The notes under the pieces were generated by a model. That model was not told where the DNA came from. It searched no databases and saw only the letters and a program-made list of their open reading frames with translations. A stretch of DNA of 64,000 nt, from contig JBDRCT010000033.1 of the NCBI GenBank assembly GCA_043821445.1, positions 5,391 through 69,390 of the forward strand, given 5' to 3'. The translations under genes were made by a program, and so were the position numbers. This DNA comes from Candidatus Omnitrophota bacterium. Its GTDB lineage: Bacteria; Omnitrophota; Omnitrophia; Omnitrophales; Aquincolibacteriaceae. Positions 1,003 through 62,680 of this stretch are shown here, piece after piece; the first letter of the stretch is position 1, and every line of letters starts with the position of its first letter.

Positions 1003-1076
1003 GGATAATAATATACTACACACAAGCTTTAGTGTTGAAATCTATCCTGACTTTTATTTTCTTTTTTAAAATGGTG

Positions 1077-1128
1077 GTCAGGATTGCCCCAATTTCCACG
1101 CGGTAGAAATTGAAGAGGATTGGGACTC
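1077..1128 (-). repeat. GTCCCAAT(N)...GAAATTGGGGC repeat (family B), intergenic copy
   Basis: Reverse complement reads GAGTCCCAATCCTCTTCAATTTCTACCGCGTGGAAATTGGGGCAATCC; divergent promoter region of nth/adh. Confidence 0.5.
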
Positions 1129-1191
1129 AATGTCATCCGCATTGTCCTCTGTTTATATTTCAAGTATACTTCGCAAAGAGGAAGAATTTTT

Positions 1192-9876: not shown

Positions 9877-9949
9877 CGTCGGATACCTTCTTCTACTATC
9901 GGCATTAAAGATTTGAACTTTCGTGGATTTTGGTTATGATAACGCACCT

Positions 9950-10867
9950 ATGAAGAATATCCTCGTGACGGGCGGTTCCGGTTTTATTGGCTCGAACATC
10001 GTTCTTGAACTCCAATCTCGCCTCCCTGAAGCCAACATTACGGTCCTAGAGGACTTCCGCAGCTCCTGTTTTAAGAACCTCCTCGGCTTTAAGGGCGACC
10101 TGCTGGCTTACGACTGTTCGGACAAGGCCTGGATGAACTGGGCCAAGGGCAAAAAGCTTGACATAATTTACCATATGGCCGCCATCACGGACACGACTAT
10201 CCTCGATGAGCAAAAGATGATGTTTGATAATGTTGAAGGCTTTCGTAATGTCCTCGACCTTGCTGTCGAGAAGAAAGCCTCCGTGGTCTACGCCTCCTCC
10301 GCCGCAACCTATGGCTCGATCGACCGGCCCATCAAAGAATCTGACGCGGGTCACCCTAACAATATTTATGGCTACTCCAAATGGACCATGGACCAGCTTG
10401 CTCCCTCCTATTATGGCAAGACCAAAGTGGTCGGACTGCGGTTCTTCAACGTCTTCGGCCCCCGGGAATATTACAAGGGACATGCTGCCAGCATGATCTA
10501 CCAACTCGCGCTCAAAATGATGGAGGGCCACCGTCCCCGCATTTTTAAATGGGGTGAACAAAAGCGTGATCATATCTATGTCAAAGATGTCGTCACCGCC
10601 ACGCTTATGGCGCACAAGGCCAAGGCGTCCACCGTCATGAACCTCGGCACCGGCCAAGCAACTTCCTTCAATGAGATCGTAGACGCGCTCAATGAAGCGC
10701 TCGGAACAAATCACAAGCCCGATTACTTCGACAATCCCTACAGTTTTTACCAGAACTTCACGCAGGCGGACATGGGCCATCATGAAAAAATGACGGGCTT
10801 CCGCTGCCGCTACACCACTCGCGAAGGCATCCTCGATTACGTCCGGAACTACCTCCTTAAAAAATAA
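9950..10867 (+). CDS. NAD-dependent sugar-nucleotide epimerase/dehydratase (HldD/RfaD-like)
   Basis: N-terminal VTGGSGFIGSNIV Rossmann motif, YGYSK catalytic YxxxK; overall similarity to ADP-L-glycero-D-manno-heptose 6-epimerase. Confidence 0.8.
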   Translation: MKNILVTGGSGFIGSNIVLELQSRLPEANITVLEDFRSSCFKNLLGFKGDLLAYDCSDKAWMNWAKGKKLDIIYHMAAITDTTILDEQKMMFDNVEGFRNVLDLAVEKKASVVYASSAATYGSIDRPIKESDAGHPNNIYGYSKWTMDQLAPSYYGKTKVVGLRFFNVFGPREYYKGHAASMIYQLALKMMEGHRPRIFKWGEQKRDHIYVKDVVTATLMAHKAKASTVMNLGTGQATSFNEIVDALNEALGTNHKPDYFDNPYSFYQNFTQADMGHHEKMTGFRCRYTTREGILDYVRNYLLKK

Positions 10868-10975
10868 ACCCCATTACGGAAGGGTAAATCGCGTAAGAAA
10901 AATCCGTTATTTTTTTCCCGTTCCCCCACCCCTTGTTCTACTTGCTAAAATAAAGGAATCCGCTAGACTGAAGCC

Positions 10976-15534: not shown

Positions 15535-15555
15535 CTGGAACCCCCTTATTTTTTA

Positions 15556-15602
15556 GTCCCAATACCTATCAATCTCAAACTTTTTGAAATTGGGGCAATC
15601 CT
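15556..15602 (+). repeat. family B repeat, intergenic copy directly upstream of DUF4870 gene start
   Basis: GTCCCAATACCTATCAATCTCAAACTTTTTGAAATTGGGGCAATCC. Confidence 0.55.
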
Positions 15603-15833
15603 TGTCAATCATTTAGAAAAAAATACAAGACAAGGATAGAAGCTCATTGCGGAATATTGTACCTCACTTCCAGGAAAAAACGATACCCTTCTTTCTCTGG
15701 CAAGATTAAAATAGGCCCTGTTCCGCCGACAATGCTTCACATCCCGTGTTGTGAAATATGAGACTTGCATATCATGCGCCGGATGTGGAAGGGGTGGCCA
15801 CTTGCCCCCCTCATTCCAAAAAAGGAGACAGTT

Positions 15834-26627: not shown

Positions 26628-26697
26628 TCCTTAAAAAATCAATTGAAAATTAGGACTGCCCAAGTCGCCGTTCATTAAAAGAAAACCAAGACTTGGG
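26628..26697 (+). repeat. hairpin element of the same family (copy b)
   Basis: TTAAAAAATCAATTGAAAATTAGGACTGCCCAAGTCGCCGTTCATTAAAAGAAAACCAAGACTTGGGCG; flanked by 14-bp direct repeat CGTCATA(A/G)TTCCCC containing the etfB start codon. Confidence 0.6.
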
Positions 26698-26708
26698 CGT
26701 CATAGTTC

Positions 26709-26929: not shown

Positions 26930-27012
26930 GTCCCAATTCCATTCAATCGAAGCGAAGCTGAGATTGGGGCAATCCTGGCTACCATTTTTCAAAAGAAAAC
27001 AAAAGTCAGGGC
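26930..27012 (+). repeat. family B repeat with downstream hairpin module
   Basis: GTCCCAATTCCATTCAATCGAAGCGAAGCTGAGATTGGGGCAATCCTGGCTACCATTTTTCAAAAGAAAACAAAAGTCAGGGCAG. Confidence 0.5.
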
Positions 27013-40395: not shown

Positions 40396-41082
40396 TCAAT
40401 TTCTTGGATTCCCGATACCCGCCCCGTCACAAATGATGGCGCGCCGCCTCAATTCGAAGAAGCATTTCACGCAACAAAGCACATCGGACGCCGCATTGTG
40501 CTGATCTTCAAAATCCACATCGAACAGCTTGACATGAAGCTCGGATAATTTCGGCCACTTGTTGCCGCCCAAACTTTTCATTTCTTTTCCAGGATGGTAG
40601 TTTGGACGGCCCCAATCTCCGCTTTGCTTCGATTGATTGGTATTGGGACCGTACGACCTCGGGATCTTGCAAAACTTCGTCGAGCTTTTCATGGTGCATA
40701 TTTTTTTGATCGTCCGTAGCCCATCCGGCATTCCCCGGCGCAAAAGCTCCACCCGGACCATTTTTTCATCGAAATCCAGATTATGCGCCACAAGACACGC
40801 GACACCCGGGATCGCTCCGGAGAACTCCCTCAAAACCTCCGCGGCCGGGCGCCCTTCTTTCAATGCCCTTTCGGTGCTGATGCCGTGGATCGCCGTCGCG
40901 CTTTCGGGGATCACGAAACCTTCCGGTTGGATCATGTGATCGTGAAGCTCAAGCTGTGTCCCGTCTTCGTCAAAAAGCGCCCAGGCGATCTGAACGATGT
41001 GCGGCCAGTTCCCGAGATCGGAAACGGGGGCCTTCCAGCTTTTCGGCAATCCGGTCGTTTCCGTATCAAAAAAAAGATACAT
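40396..41082 (-). CDS. DnaQ-like 3'-5' exonuclease (DEDDh family) carrying an in-frame repeat insertion
   Basis: MYLFFDTETTG Exo I motif, HNLDFD Exo II, NAASDV Exo III; ~30-aa segment (GPNTNQSKQSGDWGRPNYHPGK) is encoded by a copy of the GTCCCAATACC...ATTGGGGC repeat. Confidence 0.7.
   Translation of the reverse strand: MYLFFDTETTGLPKSWKAPVSDLGNWPHIVQIAWALFDEDGTQLELHDHMIQPEGFVIPESATAIHGISTERALKEGRPAAEVLREFSGAIPGVACLVAHNLDFDEKMVRVELLRRGMPDGLRTIKKICTMKSSTKFCKIPRSYGPNTNQSKQSGDWGRPNYHPGKEMKSLGGNKWPKLSELHVKLFDVDFEDQHNAASDVLCCVKCFFELRRRAIICDGAGIGNPRN
40600..40649 (-). repeat. family B repeat inserted in-frame inside the exonuclease CDS
   Basis: Minus-strand GGTCCCAATACCAATCAATCGAAGCAAAGCGGAGATTGGGGCCGTCC translated as GPNTNQSKQSGDWGRP. 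Confidence 0.55.
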
Positions 41083-41193
41083 TTTTACACCTTTATTGAG
41101 ACGCGTTTTCCGGCATGACAATATTTGTAAGTAATCGCCTTCCAGGAGGGAAAACCGGAAAAGATATTTGCGTTTAAGAGATCTTTCATGACG

Positions 41194-41805
41194 TTACTTC
41201 CCGGCCACGAATTCGAGCACCACATCTGCTTGCTTAGCCGCGGCAACACTGACCCGTGGCGATAAAGCTGGTGCTTTTTCGATGTCCGACGCAAGGTCCC
41301 CGATCAGAATGAGGTTCGGTTTGAGCTTTCGGACCTTCAGATCATCACTGGAGCCCCATCCCCCCAGTCCGGAAGCGGAGACGATCAATTTTCCGGTCGG
41401 GAGTATTCCGGACACGAGCATGCTCTTGGCTTCGGCCCGGTCGAGACACTCCACCACGACGTCGCAGTTCCGGAATATTTCCGGGATATTGGCGGGTTCT
41501 AGCTTCACGGACAGCATTTGAAGTTCGAGCCCGGGATTGATGCGGAGGAGATTGGTCCGTAATGCTTCGACTTTTTCCATCCCGACCTGATCCGCGAAAT
41601 AGAATTGCCGGTCCAAATTGGAAGGATCGATGCGATCGAAATCCACGATCGTAAAATGCCTGAAACCGACCCGGACGAGGCAGGCCGCGCAATTGGAGCC
41701 CAGGCCGCCCGCGCCCGCAATGCCGATCTTCGCTTTTTCGATCTTCGCGAGCTTCGCTTCACCGAGCTTTTCAATAAGGTCCTGCCGGAACGCGTCCATC
41801 ATCAA
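41194..41805 (-). CDS. thiF: ThiF/MoeB-family adenylyltransferase (ThiS activation)
   Basis: IGIAGAGGLGSN Rossmann/ATP motif, E1-like fold; last gene of the thiS-G-H-F string. Confidence 0.75.
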   Translation of the reverse strand: MMMDAFRQDLIEKLGEAKLAKIEKAKIGIAGAGGLGSNCAACLVRVGFRHFTIVDFDRIDPSNLDRQFYFADQVGMEKVEALRTNLLRINPGLELQMLSVKLEPANIPEIFRNCDVVVECLDRAEAKSMLVSGILPTGKLIVSASGLGGWGSSDDLKVRKLKPNLILIGDLASDIEKAPALSPRVSVAAAKQADVVLEFVAGK

Positions 41806-42998
41806 ATTTGCATCCAGTCTTTCAACACCGGCTGGTACCCTTTGGCGACGAGCATCGCTTTGAACTCTTCGACGCTCCGCGGGTCCGAGATCTCAAACTG
41901 GGAAGCATCCTCCCCTTCCGCCCCGACTTTTATTTTCTTTTGATCAACGGTAGTCGGGACGGCCCCAATTTCAACCCCGTTAAAATTGATAGGTATTGGG
42001 ACCGGAGATCCGAGCGTGTGGCCGCCGACGCGTGTCGTCGAGCCCGCCGACATGCGCGTGACCCCGAGAGGCAAAAGATGCTCGCGCAGCGAAGCGCTTT
42101 CCCGCGTGGAAAGCGTGATCCCGATCCGCGGCAGGAAAAGCCTCAAGGCCACGATGATCTGCGTCATGTTCCTGTCGCTTACCTCCGTCATTTCTTTGAA
42201 ATCCCCGGCATGCGGCCTCAGACGCGGAAGCGAAACTCCGATCTCGACCTCTCCGTAGCGGTCCTGCAAATACCGGGCGTGAAGGCCCACCCAGAAAACT
42301 TCTTTCCGCCAATCATTCAATCCCAGAAGCGCCCCGACGTTCACGCTTCTCATTCCATTCTTCGCGGCGCGCTCCGGCGCGTCAAGCCGGAAGCGGAAAT
42401 CTTTTTTAGGCCCCGCCTTATGCACCTGCTCATAAACCTCCGCATCATAGGTCTCCTGATATAAGGTCAATCCATCGACACCTGAACGTACGAGGTCCGC
42501 GTATTCCTCTTCCGTGAGTGCGTAGATCTCGACGGCAAGAGAGCTGAAATATTTTTTGAGTACTTTGAGGCATTTTTTGATATAGGACAGCGGACTTTTT
42601 TCCCTCGAATCTCCCGTCAGGATAAGAAGATGCTCGATCCCTGTCGAAGCGATGAACGCGGCCTCTTTTTCCACTTCTCCCAAAGTCAGTGTTCTCCGAG
42701 GTATTTTGTTCAGGGTATTGAACCCGCAATAAGCGCACTCATTCTCGCAATAATTCGAAAGATACATCGGCGTGTAAAGCTGGAGGGTCCTGCCAAAGTG
42801 CATCAGGGTCAAGGCATGCGCCCTTTGCGCCATGGGCTCTAACAATCTTTCCGCAGCCGGAGAAAGAAGCGCCAAAAGACGCGCGGGATCTTGCGCGTCG
42901 GAATGGATCGAACGCTCAACGTCTTGGAGTGAAATCTCACGGAAGATCTTCTCGGAAGGAAGGTCCTTATATTTCAGAAGGGTATCGTAGTAGCTCAT
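41802..42998 (-). CDS. thiH: 2-iminoacetate synthase (tyrosine lyase, radical SAM) with in-frame repeat insertion near C-terminus
   Basis: CENECAYCGF radical SAM motif, ThiH-specific C-terminus (...QFEISDPRSVEEF...PVLKDW); ~25-aa insertion VPIPINFNGVEIGAVPTTVDQ encoded by repeat copy at ~41952-42003. Confidence 0.8.
   Translation of the reverse strand: MSYYDTLLKYKDLPSEKIFREISLQDVERSIHSDAQDPARLLALLSPAAERLLEPMAQRAHALTLMHFGRTLQLYTPMYLSNYCENECAYCGFNTLNKIPRRTLTLGEVEKEAAFIASTGIEHLLILTGDSREKSPLSYIKKCLKVLKKYFSSLAVEIYALTEEEYADLVRSGVDGLTLYQETYDAEVYEQVHKAGPKKDFRFRLDAPERAAKNGMRSVNVGALLGLNDWRKEVFWVGLHARYLQDRYGEVEIGVSLPRLRPHAGDFKEMTEVSDRNMTQIIVALRLFLPRIGITLSTRESASLREHLLPLGVTRMSAGSTTRVGGHTLGSPVPIPINFNGVEIGAVPTTVDQKKIKVGAEGEDASQFEISDPRSVEEFKAMLVAKGYQPVLKDWMQI
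41952..42003 (-). repeat. family B repeat inserted in-frame inside thiH
   Basis: Minus-strand GTCCCAATACCTATCAATTTTAACGGGGTTGAAATTGGGGCCGTCCCGAC translated as VPIPINFNGVEIGAVPT (different frame from the exonuclease copy). Confidence 0.55.
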
Positions 42999-45464: not shown

Positions 45465-45704
45465 TTAGTAGTTAAAAAGGTCCCGGTGTGCGAATTTTTG
45501 TTCGGGGAGCGCGTTGTGCAAGGCGCTCAGGATCTTGGCCTTGGCCCGGACCGTAAGGCGCCTCCCCTTGCGTGCCTTTTGCACCACCTTGTGAGACAGC
45601 TGCTCGGTCGAGGCCGCAACAAGCGCGTGGTTTGAAAGCCCATGCTTGGCCATAAGGGCATCCAGGGGCTGCGCACCGAGGTCGTTCGTTCCCTTGATCG
45701 TCAT
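45465..45704 (-). CDS. small conserved hypothetical protein
   Basis: 79-aa ORF directly downstream of rho (4-nt overlap). Confidence 0.45.
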   Translation of the reverse strand: MTIKGTNDLGAQPLDALMAKHGLSNHALVAASTEQLSHKVVQKARKGRRLTVRAKAKILSALHNALPEQKFAHRDLFNY

Positions 45705-46720
45705 TGTAACTTGCTCACGGCAGTGAGAAGGTCTTTTGTCACAGGATATTTCTTGAACTGTTCGATCAACGCGCTGATTGCTTCGATGGGCTTAAGCCCG
45801 GCCAAGGCGCGGCGTATCCGGCGCGACGGTTCCAGTTCCTGTGGCGTAAAAAGAAGTTCTTCCTTACGCGTTCCGCTTTTGGATATGTCCACCGCCGGAT
45901 AAATACGCTGGTTCGAGATCTCACGCGATAGAAAGATCTCCATATTTCCCGTTCCTTTGAATTCTTCAAAAATGAGCTGGTCCATGCGGCTCCCGGTATC
46001 CACAAGGATCGTCGCGAGGATCGTAAGCGACCCTCCGTGTTCGATCTTGCGGGCCGATCCGAAGATCCGCCGCGGCACTTCCATGGAACGCGCATCCACG
46101 CCCCCGGAAAGTGTCCGGCCGCTGGAACGTTGTTCCGCATTATGCACGCGCGCCAAACGGGTCAAAGAATCGACTAGGACCATCACGTTCGCGCCGGCCG
46201 CAACCTCGCGATACACTTGTTGCATGAGCTCCCGGGCGGTCTGGATATGATGGTCATAAGTTTGGTCGGATGAAGACCACCGGACTTCGGCCGTCACGCT
46301 GCGACGGAAGTCCGTGACCTCCTCGGGCCTTTCATCGATCAAAAGACAATAAAGCTTCATCTCCGGCCGGCTTTTTGCCACGGCCTGACAAAGATGCTTG
46401 AGAAACGTTGTTTTTCCGGAACCCGGAGGCGCCACGATCAGTCCACGCTGACCCATCCCGATCGGTGTGATAAGATCCATGACGCGCATCGTAAGTTCCT
46501 GAGAGCCGTCTTCAAGCCGGATCCGTGGCGAGGGATCGACGGCCGTACTGGCAAAAAACTTCTGCTCATCTTCAGCCACCACGCGCTGAGGTTCCCCATG
46601 CGGCGGTCGGTGAGCATGACGATGGGAATGGGAACCCCGGTTGGGGCGACGCTCGCCGCGGTGTCTTTGATCGGTATTGGGACCACGCCCTGAACGCTCC
46701 CGGTGTTCAAAGTTTCTCAT
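45701..46720 (-). CDS. rho: transcription termination factor Rho, atypical (no N-terminal OB-fold RNA-binding domain; Arg-rich N-tail)
   Basis: Q-loop, Walker A GSGKTT, R-loop and C-terminal Rho motifs all present from LTMRVMDLITPIGMGQRGLIVAPPGSGKTT onward, but only ~75 residues precede them and they are Arg/His-rich low complexity; start overlaps ABC-F stop by 14 nt. Confidence 0.8.
   Translation of the reverse strand: MRNFEHRERSGRGPNTDQRHRGERRPNRGSHSHRHAHRPPHGEPQRVVAEDEQKFFASTAVDPSPRIRLEDGSQELTMRVMDLITPIGMGQRGLIVAPPGSGKTTFLKHLCQAVAKSRPEMKLYCLLIDERPEEVTDFRRSVTAEVRWSSSDQTYDHHIQTARELMQQVYREVAAGANVMVLVDSLTRLARVHNAEQRSSGRTLSGGVDARSMEVPRRIFGSARKIEHGGSLTILATILVDTGSRMDQLIFEEFKGTGNMEIFLSREISNQRIYPAVDISKSGTRKEELLFTPQELEPSRRIRRALAGLKPIEAISALIEQFKKYPVTKDLLTAVSKLQ
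46634..46684 (-). repeat. partial family B repeat forming part of the rho 5' coding region
   Basis: GGTCCCAATACCGATCAA... encodes GPNTDQ within the Arg-rich N-tail of Rho. Confidence 0.45.
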
Positions 46721-48524
46721 GCTTGAAATTTCCCCATTTTTTTTCTAAAGAATTCCACTCCGCCTCGGCAGCTTCGATCTGGATCTGCAGTTCTTTTAAG
46801 CGCACATTGCGCTCCTTAGAAAAATGAAGCGGGTTCTTCGCCATCTCCTCCAAGACCTTGTTCCGCTCCTCTGTGAAATGCCGCGCACGTCCTTCGGCTT
46901 TTTCCATGCTCTTGCGGAGCTTCGTAAGCTCGACCTTGTGCTCATTCTTCTTAGGCTGCTGAATTTCGACAGGGGGCTTGGAAGCCTTATGGGGGAGAGA
47001 CGCAGACGCGTTGTTTTCATCGCTGTCTTCTTCCTCGCCCCGGGCCACCTGCTCCAGGTGATAAACATAATCCTCATAGCTTCCGGGGTAGTGCAGGATA
47101 CGGCCTTTCTTCACTTCGAGAATGCTTGTCGCCAGAAGATTGACAAAAGTCCGGTCATGGCTGATGAAAAGCACGGTGCCGGAAAAGGCTTTAAGCGCCC
47201 GACCCAAGGCCTCCACCGTTTCGAAATCCAAGTGGTTCGTCGGCTCATCGAGAAGCAGGACATGGCTCTTGGAAAGAAGCAGTCCGGCCAGAACGAGACG
47301 CGCGCGTTCACCGCCGCTTAGAACCTTCACTTTTTTTGAAACGTCATCTCCTTTAAAAAGAAAGCACCCGGCCATGTTCAGCACATCCTGATTGCTGACC
47401 CCTGCCGCGCTTTCGCGCGAAAGATAAGTGTAAATATCATCCTCCGGGTCAAGCACCGCAAAGACATGCTGCGCGTAATAGGCCACTTTGAGCCCGGTTC
47501 CCCAACGAAAACTGCCCCCTTTGGGCGCGAGATCCCCCGCGAGCGTCATGAGAAAGGTCGTCTTCCCCTCACCGTTATTGCCGAGCACCGCGACATGCTT
47601 TCCCCGGTCGATCTCGACTTGGATCTTTCGCGCGATATCTTTTTCCGGATAGCCGATGACAAGATCTTCACAGCTGACCGCCACTCCCGCTTTCGGCTCC
47701 ACAGGCGGGATATGGATCTTAACCGTGCTCATGGGGTGTGCGATCTCGATCGTTTTAAGTTTTGCGAGTTGTTTCATTTTCGACTGTGCACGCGTCGCCG
47801 TGGAAGCCTTCGCCTTGAACCGGTCAATGAAGATCTGGAGTTGTTCCCGTTTCTTGTCGAGACCGCGGTTATAGGCCTGTTTCTGGGCGAGTTGCTCCTC
47901 CTTGAATTCGAAATACTCTTCAATGTCCCCGGGATAAAGGGCAAGCCCTCCGTTCTCGACCTCAAGCGTGTGATCACAGGTCCGCTTCAAGAATTCCCGA
48001 TCGTGGGAGACGACCAGATACCCGCCTTTGAAATCGAGCAGAAAATTTTCTAAAAGGATCAACGTGCTCAAATCTAAATAGTTGCTAGGTTCGTCAAGAA
48101 TCAGGAAATTGGGGTCGCCCAAAAGCATTGCCGCAAGCTTCACGCGCGTCTGAAAACCTCCCGGAAGATTCCGTACGGATTCTTCAAGGATCTCATTTTC
48201 AAGCTGGAACCGCGCGGCGATCTGCCCGCACTCCCAATGCTCGCTCCGCGTGGTGCGCATCAGGAAGTCCACCACCCGCTCCCCGGGCTTGAACGTATCA
48301 TGCTGTTCGAGATAGGAGAGGCGCAACGCAGCGTTGCGCGTGACGGTACCGCTTTCAGCCGATTCGTGTCCGGTGATGATACGGCAAAGCGTGGATTTCC
48401 CGGCCCCGTTGCGGCCGATCACACCGATCTTTTGATCATCTCCGAATGACGCGGTGGCGTTATCGAGGATCGTTACAGCGCCATAGGCCTTGTGCAATTC
48501 ATTGACTTGTAATAAGACGGTCAT
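46707..48524 (-). CDS. ABC-F family ATPase (two ABC domains, no TMD; Uup/YheS/EttA-like)
   Basis: Two Walker A (GRNGAGKST, GNNGEGKTT), two LSGGE signatures, C-terminal coiled-coil. Confidence 0.85.
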   Translation of the reverse strand: MTVLLQVNELHKAYGAVTILDNATASFGDDQKIGVIGRNGAGKSTLCRIITGHESAESGTVTRNAALRLSYLEQHDTFKPGERVVDFLMRTTRSEHWECGQIAARFQLENEILEESVRNLPGGFQTRVKLAAMLLGDPNFLILDEPSNYLDLSTLILLENFLLDFKGGYLVVSHDREFLKRTCDHTLEVENGGLALYPGDIEEYFEFKEEQLAQKQAYNRGLDKKREQLQIFIDRFKAKASTATRAQSKMKQLAKLKTIEIAHPMSTVKIHIPPVEPKAGVAVSCEDLVIGYPEKDIARKIQVEIDRGKHVAVLGNNGEGKTTFLMTLAGDLAPKGGSFRWGTGLKVAYYAQHVFAVLDPEDDIYTYLSRESAAGVSNQDVLNMAGCFLFKGDDVSKKVKVLSGGERARLVLAGLLLSKSHVLLLDEPTNHLDFETVEALGRALKAFSGTVLFISHDRTFVNLLATSILEVKKGRILHYPGSYEDYVYHLEQVARGEEEDSDENNASASLPHKASKPPVEIQQPKKNEHKVELTKLRKSMEKAEGRARHFTEERNKVLEEMAKNPLHFSKERNVRLKELQIQIEAAEAEWNSLEKKWGNFKHEKL

Positions 48525-48542: not shown

Positions 48543-48679
48543 ATTAGGGTTGATGATAACCGCCCAATTTCCGCCCAAGTCTTTGTTTTCTTTTAATCAA
48601 TGGCGACTTGGGCGGCACTGATTACCTTCATTTTGAAACAGAATCAAGTGCCGCTACGTAGAAATTGATAGGTGTTGGG
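48543..48679 (-). mobile_element. 137-bp composite repeat element inserted at the pyk/ABC-F junction with a 26-bp flanking direct duplication
   Basis: Contains GCCGCCCAAGTCGCCATTGATTAAAAGAAAACAAAGACTTGGGCGG hairpin (reverse orientation) plus TCCCAACACCTATCAATTT module; flanked by ACGGTCATTGTCTAAGATTCTTTTCC (48517-48542) and ACAGTCATTGTCTAAGATTTTTTTCG (48680-48705). Confidence 0.6.
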
Positions 48680-48683
48680 ACAG

Positions 48684-57518: not shown

Positions 57519-57589
57519 TAATTAAAAAAATGAATTGGAAATCATGGCTGCCCAAGTCACCCTTATTAAAAAAAACAAAGACTTGGGCG
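57519..57589 (+). repeat. hairpin element of the same family (copy c)
   Basis: AATTAAAAAAATGAATTGGAAATCATGGCTGCCCAAGTCACCCTTATTAAAAAAAACAAAGACTTGGGCG; flanked by CATGAT(C/T)TTCCTT 13-bp direct repeat; between yvcK-like and ptsH. Confidence 0.6.
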
Positions 57590-57618
57590 TCATGATTTTC
57601 CTTGATCAAAATGGGCAA

Positions 57619-62566: not shown

Positions 62567-62567
62567 A

Positions 62568-62680
62568 GTCCCAATACCTATCAATTTTAACGAAGTTGAA
62601 ATTGGGGCTGCCCTGATTACCATTTAGGAAAAGAAAATAAAAATCAGGGCTGTCCCAACTACTCTTTATATAAAAAAATC
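62568..62680 (+). repeat. family B repeat plus hairpin module, abutting the lpxL-family start codon
   Basis: GTCCCAATACCTATCAATTTTAACGAAGTTGAAATTGGGGCTGCCCTGATTACCATTTAGGAAAAGAAAATAAAAATCAGGGCTGTCCCAAC; three GTCCCAA/TTGGGAC-type units. Confidence 0.55.

What the first reader, a model, noticed from the sequence alone, without database searches (positions are those of the whole stretch)
45701..46720. Rho lacking its N-terminal RNA-binding (OB-fold) domain, with an Arg/His-rich tail partly derived from a repeat element
The ORF has every C-terminal Rho ATPase motif (Q-loop, GSGKTT, R-loop, C-terminal helices). It begins only ~75 residues before the Q-loop region with MRNFEHRERSGRGPNTDQRHRGERRPNRGSHSHRHAHRPPHGEPQ. 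Canonical Rho has ~130 residues (helix bundle + CSD-like OB fold) forming the primary RNA-binding site. The start overlaps the ABC-F stop by 14 nt, so there is no room for an unannotated upstream exon. Part of the tail is encoded by a family B repeat copy. Either Rho here loads RNA by a non-canonical basic tail, or the gene was 5'-truncated by repeat-associated rearrangement and a second rho exists elsewhere.
Basis: partly seen in the sequence, partly recalled or inferred. Interest (0 to 1): 0.55.

Follow-up and report, generated by a model that had tools for sequence, protein, structure and literature searches.

The report
Rho factor without its RNA-binding domain
This gene encodes a transcription-termination motor (Rho) that lacks its whole RNA-recognition domain and has only a short, positively charged, floppy tail in its place; the same short form is the norm across a large group of Omnitrophota bacteria, so it is a conserved natural variant, not a broken gene.

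Summary
ORF 45701-46720 (-), 339 aa, matches Rho only from E. coli residue ~127 onward. It has no helix bundle and no OB fold. Residues 1-48 are an Arg/His/Pro/Gly-rich tail that AlphaFold models as disordered. The start overlaps the ABC-F stop by 14 nt.

It is not a local truncation or assembly error. More than 120 protein clusters and about 21 species-representative genomes labelled Omnitrophota carry the same architecture. All start M-R/K-x-F/Y and have a 30-75 aa basic tail. The tail sequence diverges fast (38-51% identity where the core is 96-97%), but its composition is kept. All catalytic, Q-loop and R-loop residues are conserved.

The "repeat-derived" part is an 18-nt remnant (GPNTDQ) of an 84-nt palindromic element. 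Three relatives carry the whole element in frame in the rho tail. The same element is also inserted in frame in two other genes of this window.

My best reading is a functional Rho-family RNA translocase whose primary RNA-binding site has been replaced by a basic disordered tail.

One question stays open: I could not test whether a canonical rho also exists elsewhere in these genomes. No paper in the searchable library describes this form. I rate it a new variant of a known kind, of moderately high interest.

The parts
45701..46720 (-). rho homologue, 339 aa, ATPase-only form (includes the stop codon)
   Evidence: ORF list. NCBIfam PRK09376 scores 371 bits against a cut-off of 315, matching model positions 127-411 only. 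tblastn with E. coli Rho aligns residues 127-413 at 46% identity.
46577..46720 (-). N-terminal tail, residues 1-48 (MRNFEHRERSGRGPNTDQRHRGERRPNRGSHSHRHAHRPPHGEPQRVV): basic, His-rich, predicted disordered
   Evidence: AlphaFold pLDDT is about 46-50 with no secondary structure for residues 1-~45. The tail is 38-51% identical where the core is 96-97%.
45704..46576 (-). Linker plus RecA-type Rho C-terminal domain, residues 49-339
   Evidence: AlphaFold pLDDT above 90. Foldseek top hits are Rho chains, 283-286 aligned columns, rmsd 1.6-1.8 A. phmmer against PDB finds Rho chains only from about residue 136 onward.
46406..46435 (-). Walker A / P-loop (VAPPGSGKTT, residues 96-105)
   Evidence: Residue mapping to E. 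coli Rho: K184->K103, T185->T104.
46319..46336 (-). DERPEE: catalytic Glu (E130 = Ec E211) and Arg valve (R131 = Ec R212)
   Evidence: These columns are invariant in 56 homologues.
46094..46132 (-). Q-loop of the secondary RNA-binding site (QRSSGRTLSGGVD, residues 197-209)
   Evidence: Ec K283->R202, T286->S205, G287/G288 conserved.
45983..45997 (-). R-loop (TGSRM, residues 242-246)
   Evidence: Ec T323, G324 and S325 are identical; K326->R245.
45860..45874 (-). Arg finger region (GTRKE; R285 = Ec R366)
   Evidence: Invariant in the alignment.
46667..46684 (-). 18-nt remnant of the 5' end of the 84-nt palindromic repeat element (GGTCCCAATACCGATCAA = G13-Q18)
   Evidence: Pattern search gives 8 hits against 0.44 expected. 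Alignment with element copies and with relatives carrying the full element in frame.
46707..46720 (-). 14-nt overlap of the rho start with the 3' end of the ABC-F gene
   Evidence: ABC-F-rho adjacency is conserved in relatives with at least 71% identity.
46707..48524 (-). Upstream ABC-F family ATPase, 605 aa. It is complete, which leaves no room for a hidden Rho N-terminal domain.
   Evidence: Pfam ABC_tran x2 plus ABC_tran_Xtn; NCBIfam ABC-F models.
45465..45704 (-). Conserved 79-aa ORF whose ATG overlaps the rho stop (ATGA); function unknown
   Evidence: Conserved at 62-92% directly downstream of rho in the same clade. No Pfam or NCBIfam hit.

Best explanation
This is the normal rho of its lineage, a large clade of the candidate phylum Omnitrophota. 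It is not a damaged copy.

**What it encodes.** The protein is a Rho-family, RecA-type, ring-forming ATP-dependent RNA translocase. It keeps the complete motor and the central-channel (secondary) RNA-binding site. It has lost the whole canonical primary RNA-binding domain, meaning both the N-terminal helix bundle and the OB fold.

**What replaces the lost domain.** Each subunit carries a 30-75 residue disordered tail rich in Arg, His, Pro, Gly and Ser (net charge about +7).

**Proposed mechanism (inferred).** Six such tails around the ring entrance capture nascent RNA electrostatically, with little sequence specificity. They feed the RNA to the Q- and R-loops, after which ATP-driven 5'->3' translocation proceeds as in canonical Rho.

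**Shown:**
- the domain architecture;
- its conservation across the lineage;
- conservation of the catalytic and secondary-site residues;
- predicted disorder of the tail;
- conservation of tail composition despite fast sequence change.

**Inferred:** hexamer formation, RNA binding by the tail, and termination activity.

**Repeat remnant.** The short repeat-like stretch in the tail is a remnant of an 84-nt palindromic element. That element repeatedly lands in frame in this tolerant, disordered segment.
For: **Architecture.**
- The Rho models match only model positions 127-411, or E. coli residues 127-413.
- There is no Rho_N or Rho_RNA_bind hit.
- AlphaFold gives a disordered region for residues 1-~45 and a confident C-terminal domain. 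That domain superposes on solved Rho C-terminal domains at 1.6-1.8 A.

**Lineage norm.**
- All of the top 120 clusters are 285-380 aa, carry PF00006 only, and where named are Omnitrophota/Omnitrophica Rho, apart from one cluster labelled Verrucomicrobiae.
- All 28 loci with at least 62% identity have too little open frame for an N-terminal domain, and none gives an NTD hit.
- All start M-[RKHN]-x-[FY] and have basic tails of 30-75 aa, with R 22%, H 9% and median net charge +7.5.
- An apparently tail-less homologue proved to be a miscalled start.

**Function retained.**
- Walker A/B, E211, R212, R366 and the Q- and R-loop residues are identical or conservatively replaced.
- They are invariant across 56 homologues.
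- The core is 96-97% identical between species whose tails are 38-51% identical.

**Recurrence.** Other representatives in the 50%-identity library have the same layout of a basic low-complexity tail plus Rho C-terminal domain: P0122, P0135, P0125, P0136, P0170.

**Tail is translated and tolerant.** Tail length varies only by whole codons. An 84-nt element is retained in frame in three relatives.

**Precedent.** Basic disordered regions of other Rho factors are reported to raise RNA affinity (PMC11347177, as cited there for Bacteroides fragilis).
Against: - There is no direct evidence that the tail binds RNA, or that a ring without N-terminal domains loads RNA or terminates transcription.
- Deleting only the first 27 residues of E. 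coli Rho is reported to abolish RNA binding (PMC11347177). A Rho without a primary binding site therefore runs against what is known for the model protein.
- I could not search whole Omnitrophota genomes, so a second, canonical rho that supplies OB folds (possibly in mixed hexamers) is not excluded.
- One MAG labelled Omnitrophota (L086/P0271) encodes an OB-containing ~370-aa Rho.
- A Marinobacter genome carries an ATPase-only relative (L027). Marinobacter is a gammaproteobacterium and presumably also has a normal rho (own knowledge; not checked here). If so, this architecture can exist as an extra copy.
- The tail is His-rich, which could point to metal or pH sensing rather than RNA capture.
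Confidence: 0.6

Rival explanations
1. Accessory paralogue. The genome also encodes a canonical, OB-containing Rho elsewhere. The short protein then either joins it in mixed hexamers, with RNA recognition supplied in trans, or has a separate RNA-remodelling role.
For: - Species with two rho genes are known, mainly in the PVC group and Actinomycetota, and mixed hexamers have been proposed (PMC11347177).
- In a rough neighbour-joining tree, the short clade is sister to the ~370-aa OB-only 'Group B/Type 4' forms. In several phyla these are second copies.
- A close ATPase-only relative sits in a Marinobacter genome.
- One MAG labelled Omnitrophota has an OB-containing Rho.
Against: - No canonical Rho was seen in any Omnitrophota sequence I could reach. 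The 64-kb window has none.
- The 28 loci of up to ~21 kb (10 kb each side of rho) around short rho genes show only the short gene.
- In 830 kb of metagenome contigs carrying this lineage's repeat element, the only rho found is the short type. This sampling is far from exhaustive.
- The relatives of the OB-containing protein from the Omnitrophota-labelled MAG are labelled Aminicenantes, Acidobacteria, Deferrimicrobium and Planctomycetota, not Omnitrophota.
- The short gene sits among housekeeping genes, in conserved synteny, and its conservation is typical of housekeeping genes.
Confidence: 0.27
2. Rho-derived motor with a function other than transcription termination. Examples would be an RNA chaperone/helicase linked to translation (it is co-transcribed and translationally coupled with an ABC-F factor) or to RNA decay.
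For: - The 14-nt overlap with ABC-F and the 4-nt overlap with a conserved 79-aa ORF suggest one co-expressed unit, conserved in the closer clade.
- Loss of the domain that contacts rut sites, and in E. coli complexes also RNAP and NusA (own knowledge), fits a change of role.
Against: - The synteny is absent in the more distant members that share the same architecture: L007, L022, L026-L028.
- Every residue known to matter for Rho's translocation chemistry is kept.
- Nothing specific points to another pathway.
Confidence: 0.1
3. Artefact or decay: a frameshift, misassembly, wrong start or recent repeat-mediated 5' deletion of a normal rho.
For: Only the repeat remnant inside the tail, and the unusual absence of the N-terminal domain.
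Against: - Independent assemblies from many studies show the same gene structure.
- The upstream DNA is a complete ABC-F gene.
- No NTD-like sequence exists in any frame of the window.
- The core is under strong purifying selection.
Confidence: 0.02

Closest known systems
Canonical Rho (E. coli type; NCBIfam PRK09376 / TIGR00767; PDB 1PV4, 3ICE, 5JJI)
   Same: The C-terminal RecA-type ATPase domain is 46% identical. Walker A/B, catalytic Glu, Arg valve, Arg finger, Q-loop and R-loop are all present. The predicted fold superposes at 1.6-1.8 A.
   Different: The whole N-terminal domain is missing (Ec residues 1-~126: helix bundle plus OB-fold primary binding site). A 48-aa disordered basic tail takes its place. 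The protein passes the PRK09376 cut-off but not that of TIGR00767.
Short Rho forms: 'Group B' / 'Type 4' of PMC11347177, and NCBIfam NF041509 'Rho, short form' (~360-370 aa)
   Same: Both are shortened at the N-terminus. In a rough tree, the OB-only forms found here are the nearest neighbours of the short clade.
   Different: Those forms keep the OB-fold RNA-binding domain and lack only the helix bundle (PMC11347177). The window protein matches NF041509 only from position 75 and scores 321 bits against a cut-off of 628.
Rho factors with basic disordered insertions ('Type 2': Mycobacterium tuberculosis, Bacteroides, Micrococcus)
   Same: They carry a low-complexity, positively charged, disordered N-terminal segment. 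The literature links such segments to RNA affinity, site selection or condensate formation (PMC11347177; PMC13650167, abstract).
   Different: In those proteins the disordered segment is added to an intact helix bundle and OB fold. Here it is the only N-terminal element, and it is much shorter.
'Rho-like' single-domain sequences listed in PMC11347177
   Same: That survey would class an ATPase-domain-only protein as 'Rho-like' rather than 'functional Rho'.
   Different: The survey treats them only in its supplement. It used complete RefSeq genomes, its main text does not mention Omnitrophota, and it describes no lineage in which this is the conserved form with a conserved tail.
Rickettsia palindromic elements (RPE): short palindromic repeats inserted in frame in protein-coding genes (own knowledge)
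   Same: The 84-nt element here is a multiple of three and folds into two hairpins. It is present or absent in frame in orthologous genes: rho tail, ThiH-like gene, RNase T-like gene.
   Different: There is no sequence relationship and the phylum is different. In the window's own rho only an 18-nt remnant is left.

Membership tests
Rho transcription termination factor (canonical) | RecA-type ATPase C-terminal domain with Walker A/B, catalytic Glu, Arg valve and Arg finger | tested here: met
   All are present and aligned to Ec K184, T185, E211, R212, D265 and R366. They are invariant in 56 homologues. The fold matches Rho C-terminal domains.
Rho transcription termination factor (canonical) | Secondary RNA-binding site: Q-loop and R-loop | tested here: met
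   SSGRTLSGGVD and TGSRM, with only K->R and T->S changes.
Rho transcription termination factor (canonical) | Primary RNA-binding site: OB-fold (Rho_RNA_bind, PF07497) | tested here: not met
   No Pfam hit at E<=0.01. The Rho models start at position 127. phmmer with Ec residues 1-130 gives no hit in the relatives' loci (L001-L028), and tblastn with full-length EcRho matches nothing from residues 1-126 anywhere in the window. Forty-eight disordered residues cannot hold an OB fold.
Rho transcription termination factor (canonical) | N-terminal helix bundle (Rho_N, PF07498) | tested here: not met
   No Pfam hit. No predicted helices before residue 50.
Rho transcription termination factor (canonical) | Curated model cut-offs | tested here: inconclusive
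   PRK09376 scores 371 bits against a cut-off of 315 (passes). TIGR00767 scores 357 against 509 (fails).
Rho transcription termination factor (canonical) | Homohexameric ring; RNA-dependent ATPase; termination of transcription | not testable with these tools
   This needs biochemistry. Only a monomer was modelled.
Short-form Rho (NF041509 paralog_Rho2; Type 4 / Group B) | Retains the OB-fold RNA-binding domain and lacks only the helix bundle | tested here: not met
   The window protein aligns only to NF041509 positions 75-359. The comparison protein P0271 aligns to positions 3-358 and has a Rho_RNA_bind hit.
Short-form Rho (NF041509 paralog_Rho2; Type 4 / Group B) | Curated cut-off of NF041509 | tested here: not met
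   321 bits against a cut-off of 628.
Rho with disordered insertion (Type 2) | Disordered basic region combined with an intact N-terminal domain and OB fold | tested here: not met
   The disordered basic region is present. The N-terminal domain and OB fold are absent.
In-frame palindromic repeat elements (RPE-like) | Length a multiple of 3, hairpin-forming, present or absent in frame within orthologous coding genes | tested here: met
   The insertions are 84 nt = 28 aa, exactly absent from the L002 orthologues of the ThiH-like and RNase T-like genes. Full in-frame copies sit in the rho tails of L001, L013 and L024. The element folds into two hairpins, with z-scores of -2.7 to -5.

The most novel reading that the evidence does not exclude
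The short protein is the only Rho of these Omnitrophota. A whole bacterial lineage would then terminate transcription with a Rho that has no structured primary RNA-binding site. RNA would be loaded through six basic, His-rich disordered tails, possibly with RNA-driven condensation or pH/metal tuning of the charge. Terminator choice would not depend on the YC-dinucleotide reading that defines rut sites elsewhere. The divergent clusters with the same layout (P0125, P0135, P0136, P0170) would then mean this solution evolved more than once.
Probability: 0.4. Interest if true: 0.78.

Novelty: new variant of a known kind. Interest (0 to 1): 0.6.

Why it matters
**A natural knock-out of the primary binding site.** In every studied case, Rho's OB-fold primary binding site selects terminators, and it is treated as part of the definition of a functional Rho. 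A conserved, lineage-wide Rho that keeps the motor and replaces that site with a short disordered basic tail is a natural knock-out of it. The protein is small, soluble-looking and easy to express. It makes several questions testable:
- whether a Rho ring can load and terminate without structured RNA recognition;
- what a basic disordered tail can contribute on its own;
- how terminator specificity is set in such organisms.

**Annotation.** Pipelines name this protein plain 'Rho' (it passes one curated model), while domain-based surveys would count the same genomes as lacking functional Rho.

**Side observation.** An 84-nt palindromic element inserts in frame into coding genes, as Rickettsia RPEs do, in an unrelated phylum.

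Tried and rejected
**1. Hidden N-terminal domain.** tblastn with full E. coli Rho against the window found nothing beyond the C-terminal domain. The upstream DNA is a complete ABC-F gene. Rejected.

**2. Second rho.** No tool gave whole-genome access, so I tried three indirect routes.
- A genome-contig scan with the short protein returned one OB-containing Rho from a MAG labelled Omnitrophota (L086). Its protein relatives carry labels of other phyla. It does not show a phylum-typical second rho.
- I used the lineage's repeat element as a probe to sample metagenome contigs (120 loci, 830 kb). The only rho among them is the short type. The sample is too small to exclude a second gene.
- Literature searches for Omnitrophota plus Rho, a recent Omnitrophota complete-genome preprint and a 2025 Rho review turned up nothing on this form.

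**3. 'Tail-less' homologues as evidence that the tail is dispensable.** The one I could check at DNA level (P0112/L007) is a miscalled start, with a conserved MRKF start 24 codons upstream. Others look like internal starts or fragments. Rejected as evidence.

**4. The downstream 79-aa ORF, and the 110-aa ORF upstream of rho in L007, as trans-acting RNA-binding partners.** Neither has a Pfam or NCBIfam hit. The 79-aa ORF is absent near the more distant short rho genes. Left open.

**5. Rfam scan of the window** for the repeat or any leader RNA: no hit at gathering thresholds.

**6. Supplement of PMC11347177** on 'Rho-like' sequences: not held.

**7. Context of the Marinobacter copy:** uninformative.
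Full report
**1. The observation**

ORF 45701..46720 on the minus strand encodes 339 aa.
- Its ATG is the first start codon after an in-frame TAG ten codons upstream. It overlaps the last 14 nt of a complete 605-aa ABC-F gene (46707..48524).
- Pfam finds only the generic ATP-synt_ab nucleotide-binding domain. It finds no Rho_N and no Rho_RNA_bind.
- NCBIfam's Rho model PRK09376 matches residues 49-333 to model positions 127-411 of 413. The score is 371 bits against a cut-off of 315. The stricter TIGR00767 is not reached, at 357 against 509.
- tblastn with E. coli Rho aligns only residues 127-413, at 46% identity. It finds nothing resembling residues 1-126 anywhere in the 64-kb window.

The description is therefore correct, with two small corrections.
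The true Q-loop is at residues 197-209.
- The repeat-derived part is 18 nt, not a full copy.

**2. It is the lineage norm, not a truncation**

Protein search:
- It returned at least 8000 relatives.
- The best 120 clusters (68-94% identical) are all 285-380 aa and carry PF00006 only.
- Where they have a name, they are called Rho of Candidatus Omnitrophota/Omnitrophica, apart from one cluster labelled Verrucomicrobiae.

Scan of one genome per species:
- It gave about 21 Omnitrophota-labelled or unlabelled MAG loci with at least 62% identity.
- It also gave one locus labelled Planctomycetia and one on a 636-kb contig of Marinobacter sp. BW6.
- In all 28 such loci, the open frame upstream of the conserved core is too short for an N-terminal domain. 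phmmer with E. coli residues 1-130 finds nothing. In the same run it does find OB folds in many of the more distant (at most 54% identical) Rho genes.

After correcting gene starts, every member begins M-[R/K/H/N]-x-[F/Y] and has a tail of 30-75 residues. The composition is R 22%, P 11.5%, G 11%, S 10% and H 9%, with a median net charge of +7.5. The only Omnitrophota member whose called start leaves almost no tail, and that I could check at DNA level, is a miscalled start: L007 has a conserved MRKF start 24 codons upstream. The Marinobacter copy (L027) is the one exception: its N-terminal tail is Lys/Glu/Ala-rich and not net-basic.

Synteny is conserved in the clade with at least 71% identity. 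The order there is ABC-F, then an overlapping rho, then an overlapping 79-aa ORF. More distant members lack this arrangement.

**3. The motor is intact and the tail is disordered**
- Mapped onto E. coli Rho, K184, T185, D210, E211, R212, D265, S266, R269, R272, G287, G288, D290, T323, G324, S325, M327, R353 and R366 are identical. K283, T286 and K326 are replaced conservatively by R, S and R.
- These columns are invariant in an alignment of 56 homologues.
- AlphaFold2, run with that alignment, gives pLDDT of about 46-50 and no secondary structure for residues 1-~45. Almost all of the rest is above 90.
- The model superposes on solved Rho chains over 283-286 columns at rmsd 1.6-1.8 A.
- Every solved Rho matched by sequence has another ~135 or more residues N-terminal to the aligned part.
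- Between species whose cores are 96-97% identical, the tails are only 38-51% identical. The tails always stay in frame, basic and of similar length. This pattern is expected of a functional disordered region, not of an untranslated leader or a decaying segment.

**4. Wider distribution**

In a library clustered at 50% identity, the family collapses to a few representatives. Several other clusters, more than 50% divergent, show the same layout of a basic low-complexity tail followed directly by a Rho C-terminal domain:
- P0122;
- P0135;
- P0125, whose tail is RGG-like;
- P0136;
- P0170, whose tail is Gly/Gln/Arg-rich.

None of these has a Rho_RNA_bind hit.

A neighbour-joining tree of C-terminal domains gives only a rough picture, with no support values.
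- The Omnitrophota clade, the Marinobacter copy, P0122 and P0170 form one group.
- That group sits next to the ~370-aa OB-only forms.
- P0125 and P0136 fall elsewhere, which hints at more than one origin.

**5. The repeat**

The window holds at least seven copies of an ~84-nt element. Its 5' end reads GGTCCCAATACCnATCAAT. It folds into two hairpins, and the second stem covaries between copies.

The rho tail contains only the first 18 nt, read as GPNTDQ (46667-46684). Three relatives carry the whole element in frame in the rho tail, adding 28 residues (NTNQSKRSGDWGRPN.HS.KEMK.LGG):
- L001, a JGI metagenome contig;
- L013, a species representative;
- L024, a species representative.

The insertion point in L001 lies five to six codons away from that in L013 and L024. 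Other relatives have no trace of the element. The window's 18 nt line up with the L001 site, so a mostly deleted insertion is the simplest reading.

The same element is also inserted in frame in two other genes of this window, and each insertion is an exact 28-residue gap in orthologues:
- a ThiH-like gene (copy 41920-42002);
- an RNase T-like exonuclease gene (copy 40567-40649).

The repeat did not create the short Rho.

**6. What it most likely does**

Shown:
- a conserved, translated Rho-family ATPase;
- complete translocation chemistry and central-channel RNA-binding loops;
- no structured primary RNA-binding domain;
- a conserved-composition basic disordered tail.

Inferred:
- It forms a hexameric ring.
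- The six tails give non-specific electrostatic RNA capture that substitutes for the OB-fold crown.
- It acts in transcription termination.

The literature reports that basic disordered insertions raise RNA affinity in other Rho factors. It also reports that removing even the first 27 residues of E. coli Rho abolishes RNA binding (PMC11347177). Some replacement for the lost site is therefore needed, and the tail is the only candidate in cis.

The main rival is that a canonical rho exists elsewhere in the genome and the short form is an accessory subunit or paralogue. I could not run a genome-wide search. The indirect attempts found no canonical Rho in any Omnitrophota sequence, but the sampling is thin.

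**7. Comparison with what is known**

The 2024 survey of Rho diversity (PMC11347177) defines four types of 'functional' Rho.
- All four have the OB-fold RNA-binding domain. Its shortest class (Type 4 / Group B) lacks only the helix bundle.
- Proteins with the ATPase domain alone are set aside as 'Rho-like' and are treated only in a supplement I could not read.
- That survey used complete RefSeq genomes, and its main text does not mention Omnitrophota.

NCBIfam's 'Rho, short form' model also includes an OB-fold region that this protein lacks.

Searches of the paper library for Omnitrophota together with Rho found nothing on this form. Neither did a 2025 Rho review or a 2026 complete-genome study of the phylum.

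I therefore file it as a new variant of a known kind. It works like the Rho motor. It fails the membership test for canonical Rho on the primary binding site, and it fails the test for the known short forms on the OB fold.

**8. Verdict**

The truncation and artefact reading is rejected. The basic-tail reading is the best supported, though still inferential. Whether this is the sole Rho is unresolved. Interest is moderately high, because a lineage-wide Rho without a primary binding site would surprise specialists and is directly testable.

Noticed in passing
window 41920-42002 (in ORF 41802-42998, -) and 40567-40649 (in ORF 40396-41121, -): An 84-nt palindromic repeat element is inserted in frame in a ThiH-like radical-SAM gene (28 aa, VPIPINFNGVEIGAVPTTVDQKKIKVGA). 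It is also inserted in frame in an RNase T-like exonuclease gene (28 aa, PNTNQSKQSGDWGRPNYHPGKEMKSLGG). Both insertions are exact 28-residue gaps in the orthologues of a 94%-related genome (L002). This is behaviour like Rickettsia RPEs, in Omnitrophota.
   Followed up: partly
window 1046-1130, 15552-15628, 26930-27012, 48572-48681, 62567-62650 (with related shorter copies at 196-265, 26633-26703, 57525-57593): These are intergenic copies of the same repeat family, or of a related one that shares the second hairpin. The element folds into two hairpins, and the second stem changes in a compensatory way between copies (GTCCAAACT/AGTTTGGGC, GTCCCGACT/AGTCGGGGC, GCCCTGATT/AATCAGGGC). There is no Rfam match.
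   Followed up: partly
L001:2479-2562; L013 and L024 rho tails: The complete 84-nt element sits in frame inside the rho tail in three relatives. There are two insertion points five to six codons apart, which suggests independent insertions into the same disordered segment.
   Followed up: yes
window 45465-45704 (-): A 79-aa basic ORF has its ATG overlapping the rho stop (ATGA). It is conserved at 62-92% directly downstream of rho in all closer relatives. It has no Pfam or NCBIfam match. It could be a Rho partner; this was not tested.
   Followed up: partly
L027 (Marinobacter sp. BW6, NZ_VIRN01000061.1, 636-kb contig), ORF 9899-10894: An ATPase-only Rho relative, 65% identical in the core, sits in a gammaproteobacterial assembly. 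Its N-terminus is Lys/Glu/Ala-rich rather than Arg/His-rich. Its neighbours are unrelated genes, including a ParE/RelE-like ORF and an SMR-type transporter. Horizontal transfer or contamination is likely.
   Followed up: partly
L086 (JBLMYT010000043.1, MAG labelled Candidatus Omnitrophota), protein P0271: This is a ~374-aa Rho with a weak but full-length Rho_RNA_bind match (OB-only 'Type 4' form). Its closest relatives carry labels of Aminicenantes, Acidobacteria, Deferrimicrobium and Planctomycetota. It is either a basal state, a second copy, or a binning error.
   Followed up: partly
P0001, P0003, P0004 (N-terminal MEFFGKENEETSS... extension); P0112, P0014, P0016 (shortened); L007:9929: Gene callers disagree on the rho start in this family. 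Some extend it into the ABC-F overlap, and some start at internal Met codons. Database lengths (285-380 aa) therefore misstate the real tail length.
   Followed up: yes
L056 and L075 (both from assembly JAZDGZ01, MAG labelled Pseudomonadota): Two separate loci encoding ~370-390-aa short Rho forms occur in one MAG. This is an example of duplicated short-form rho genes.
   Followed up: no
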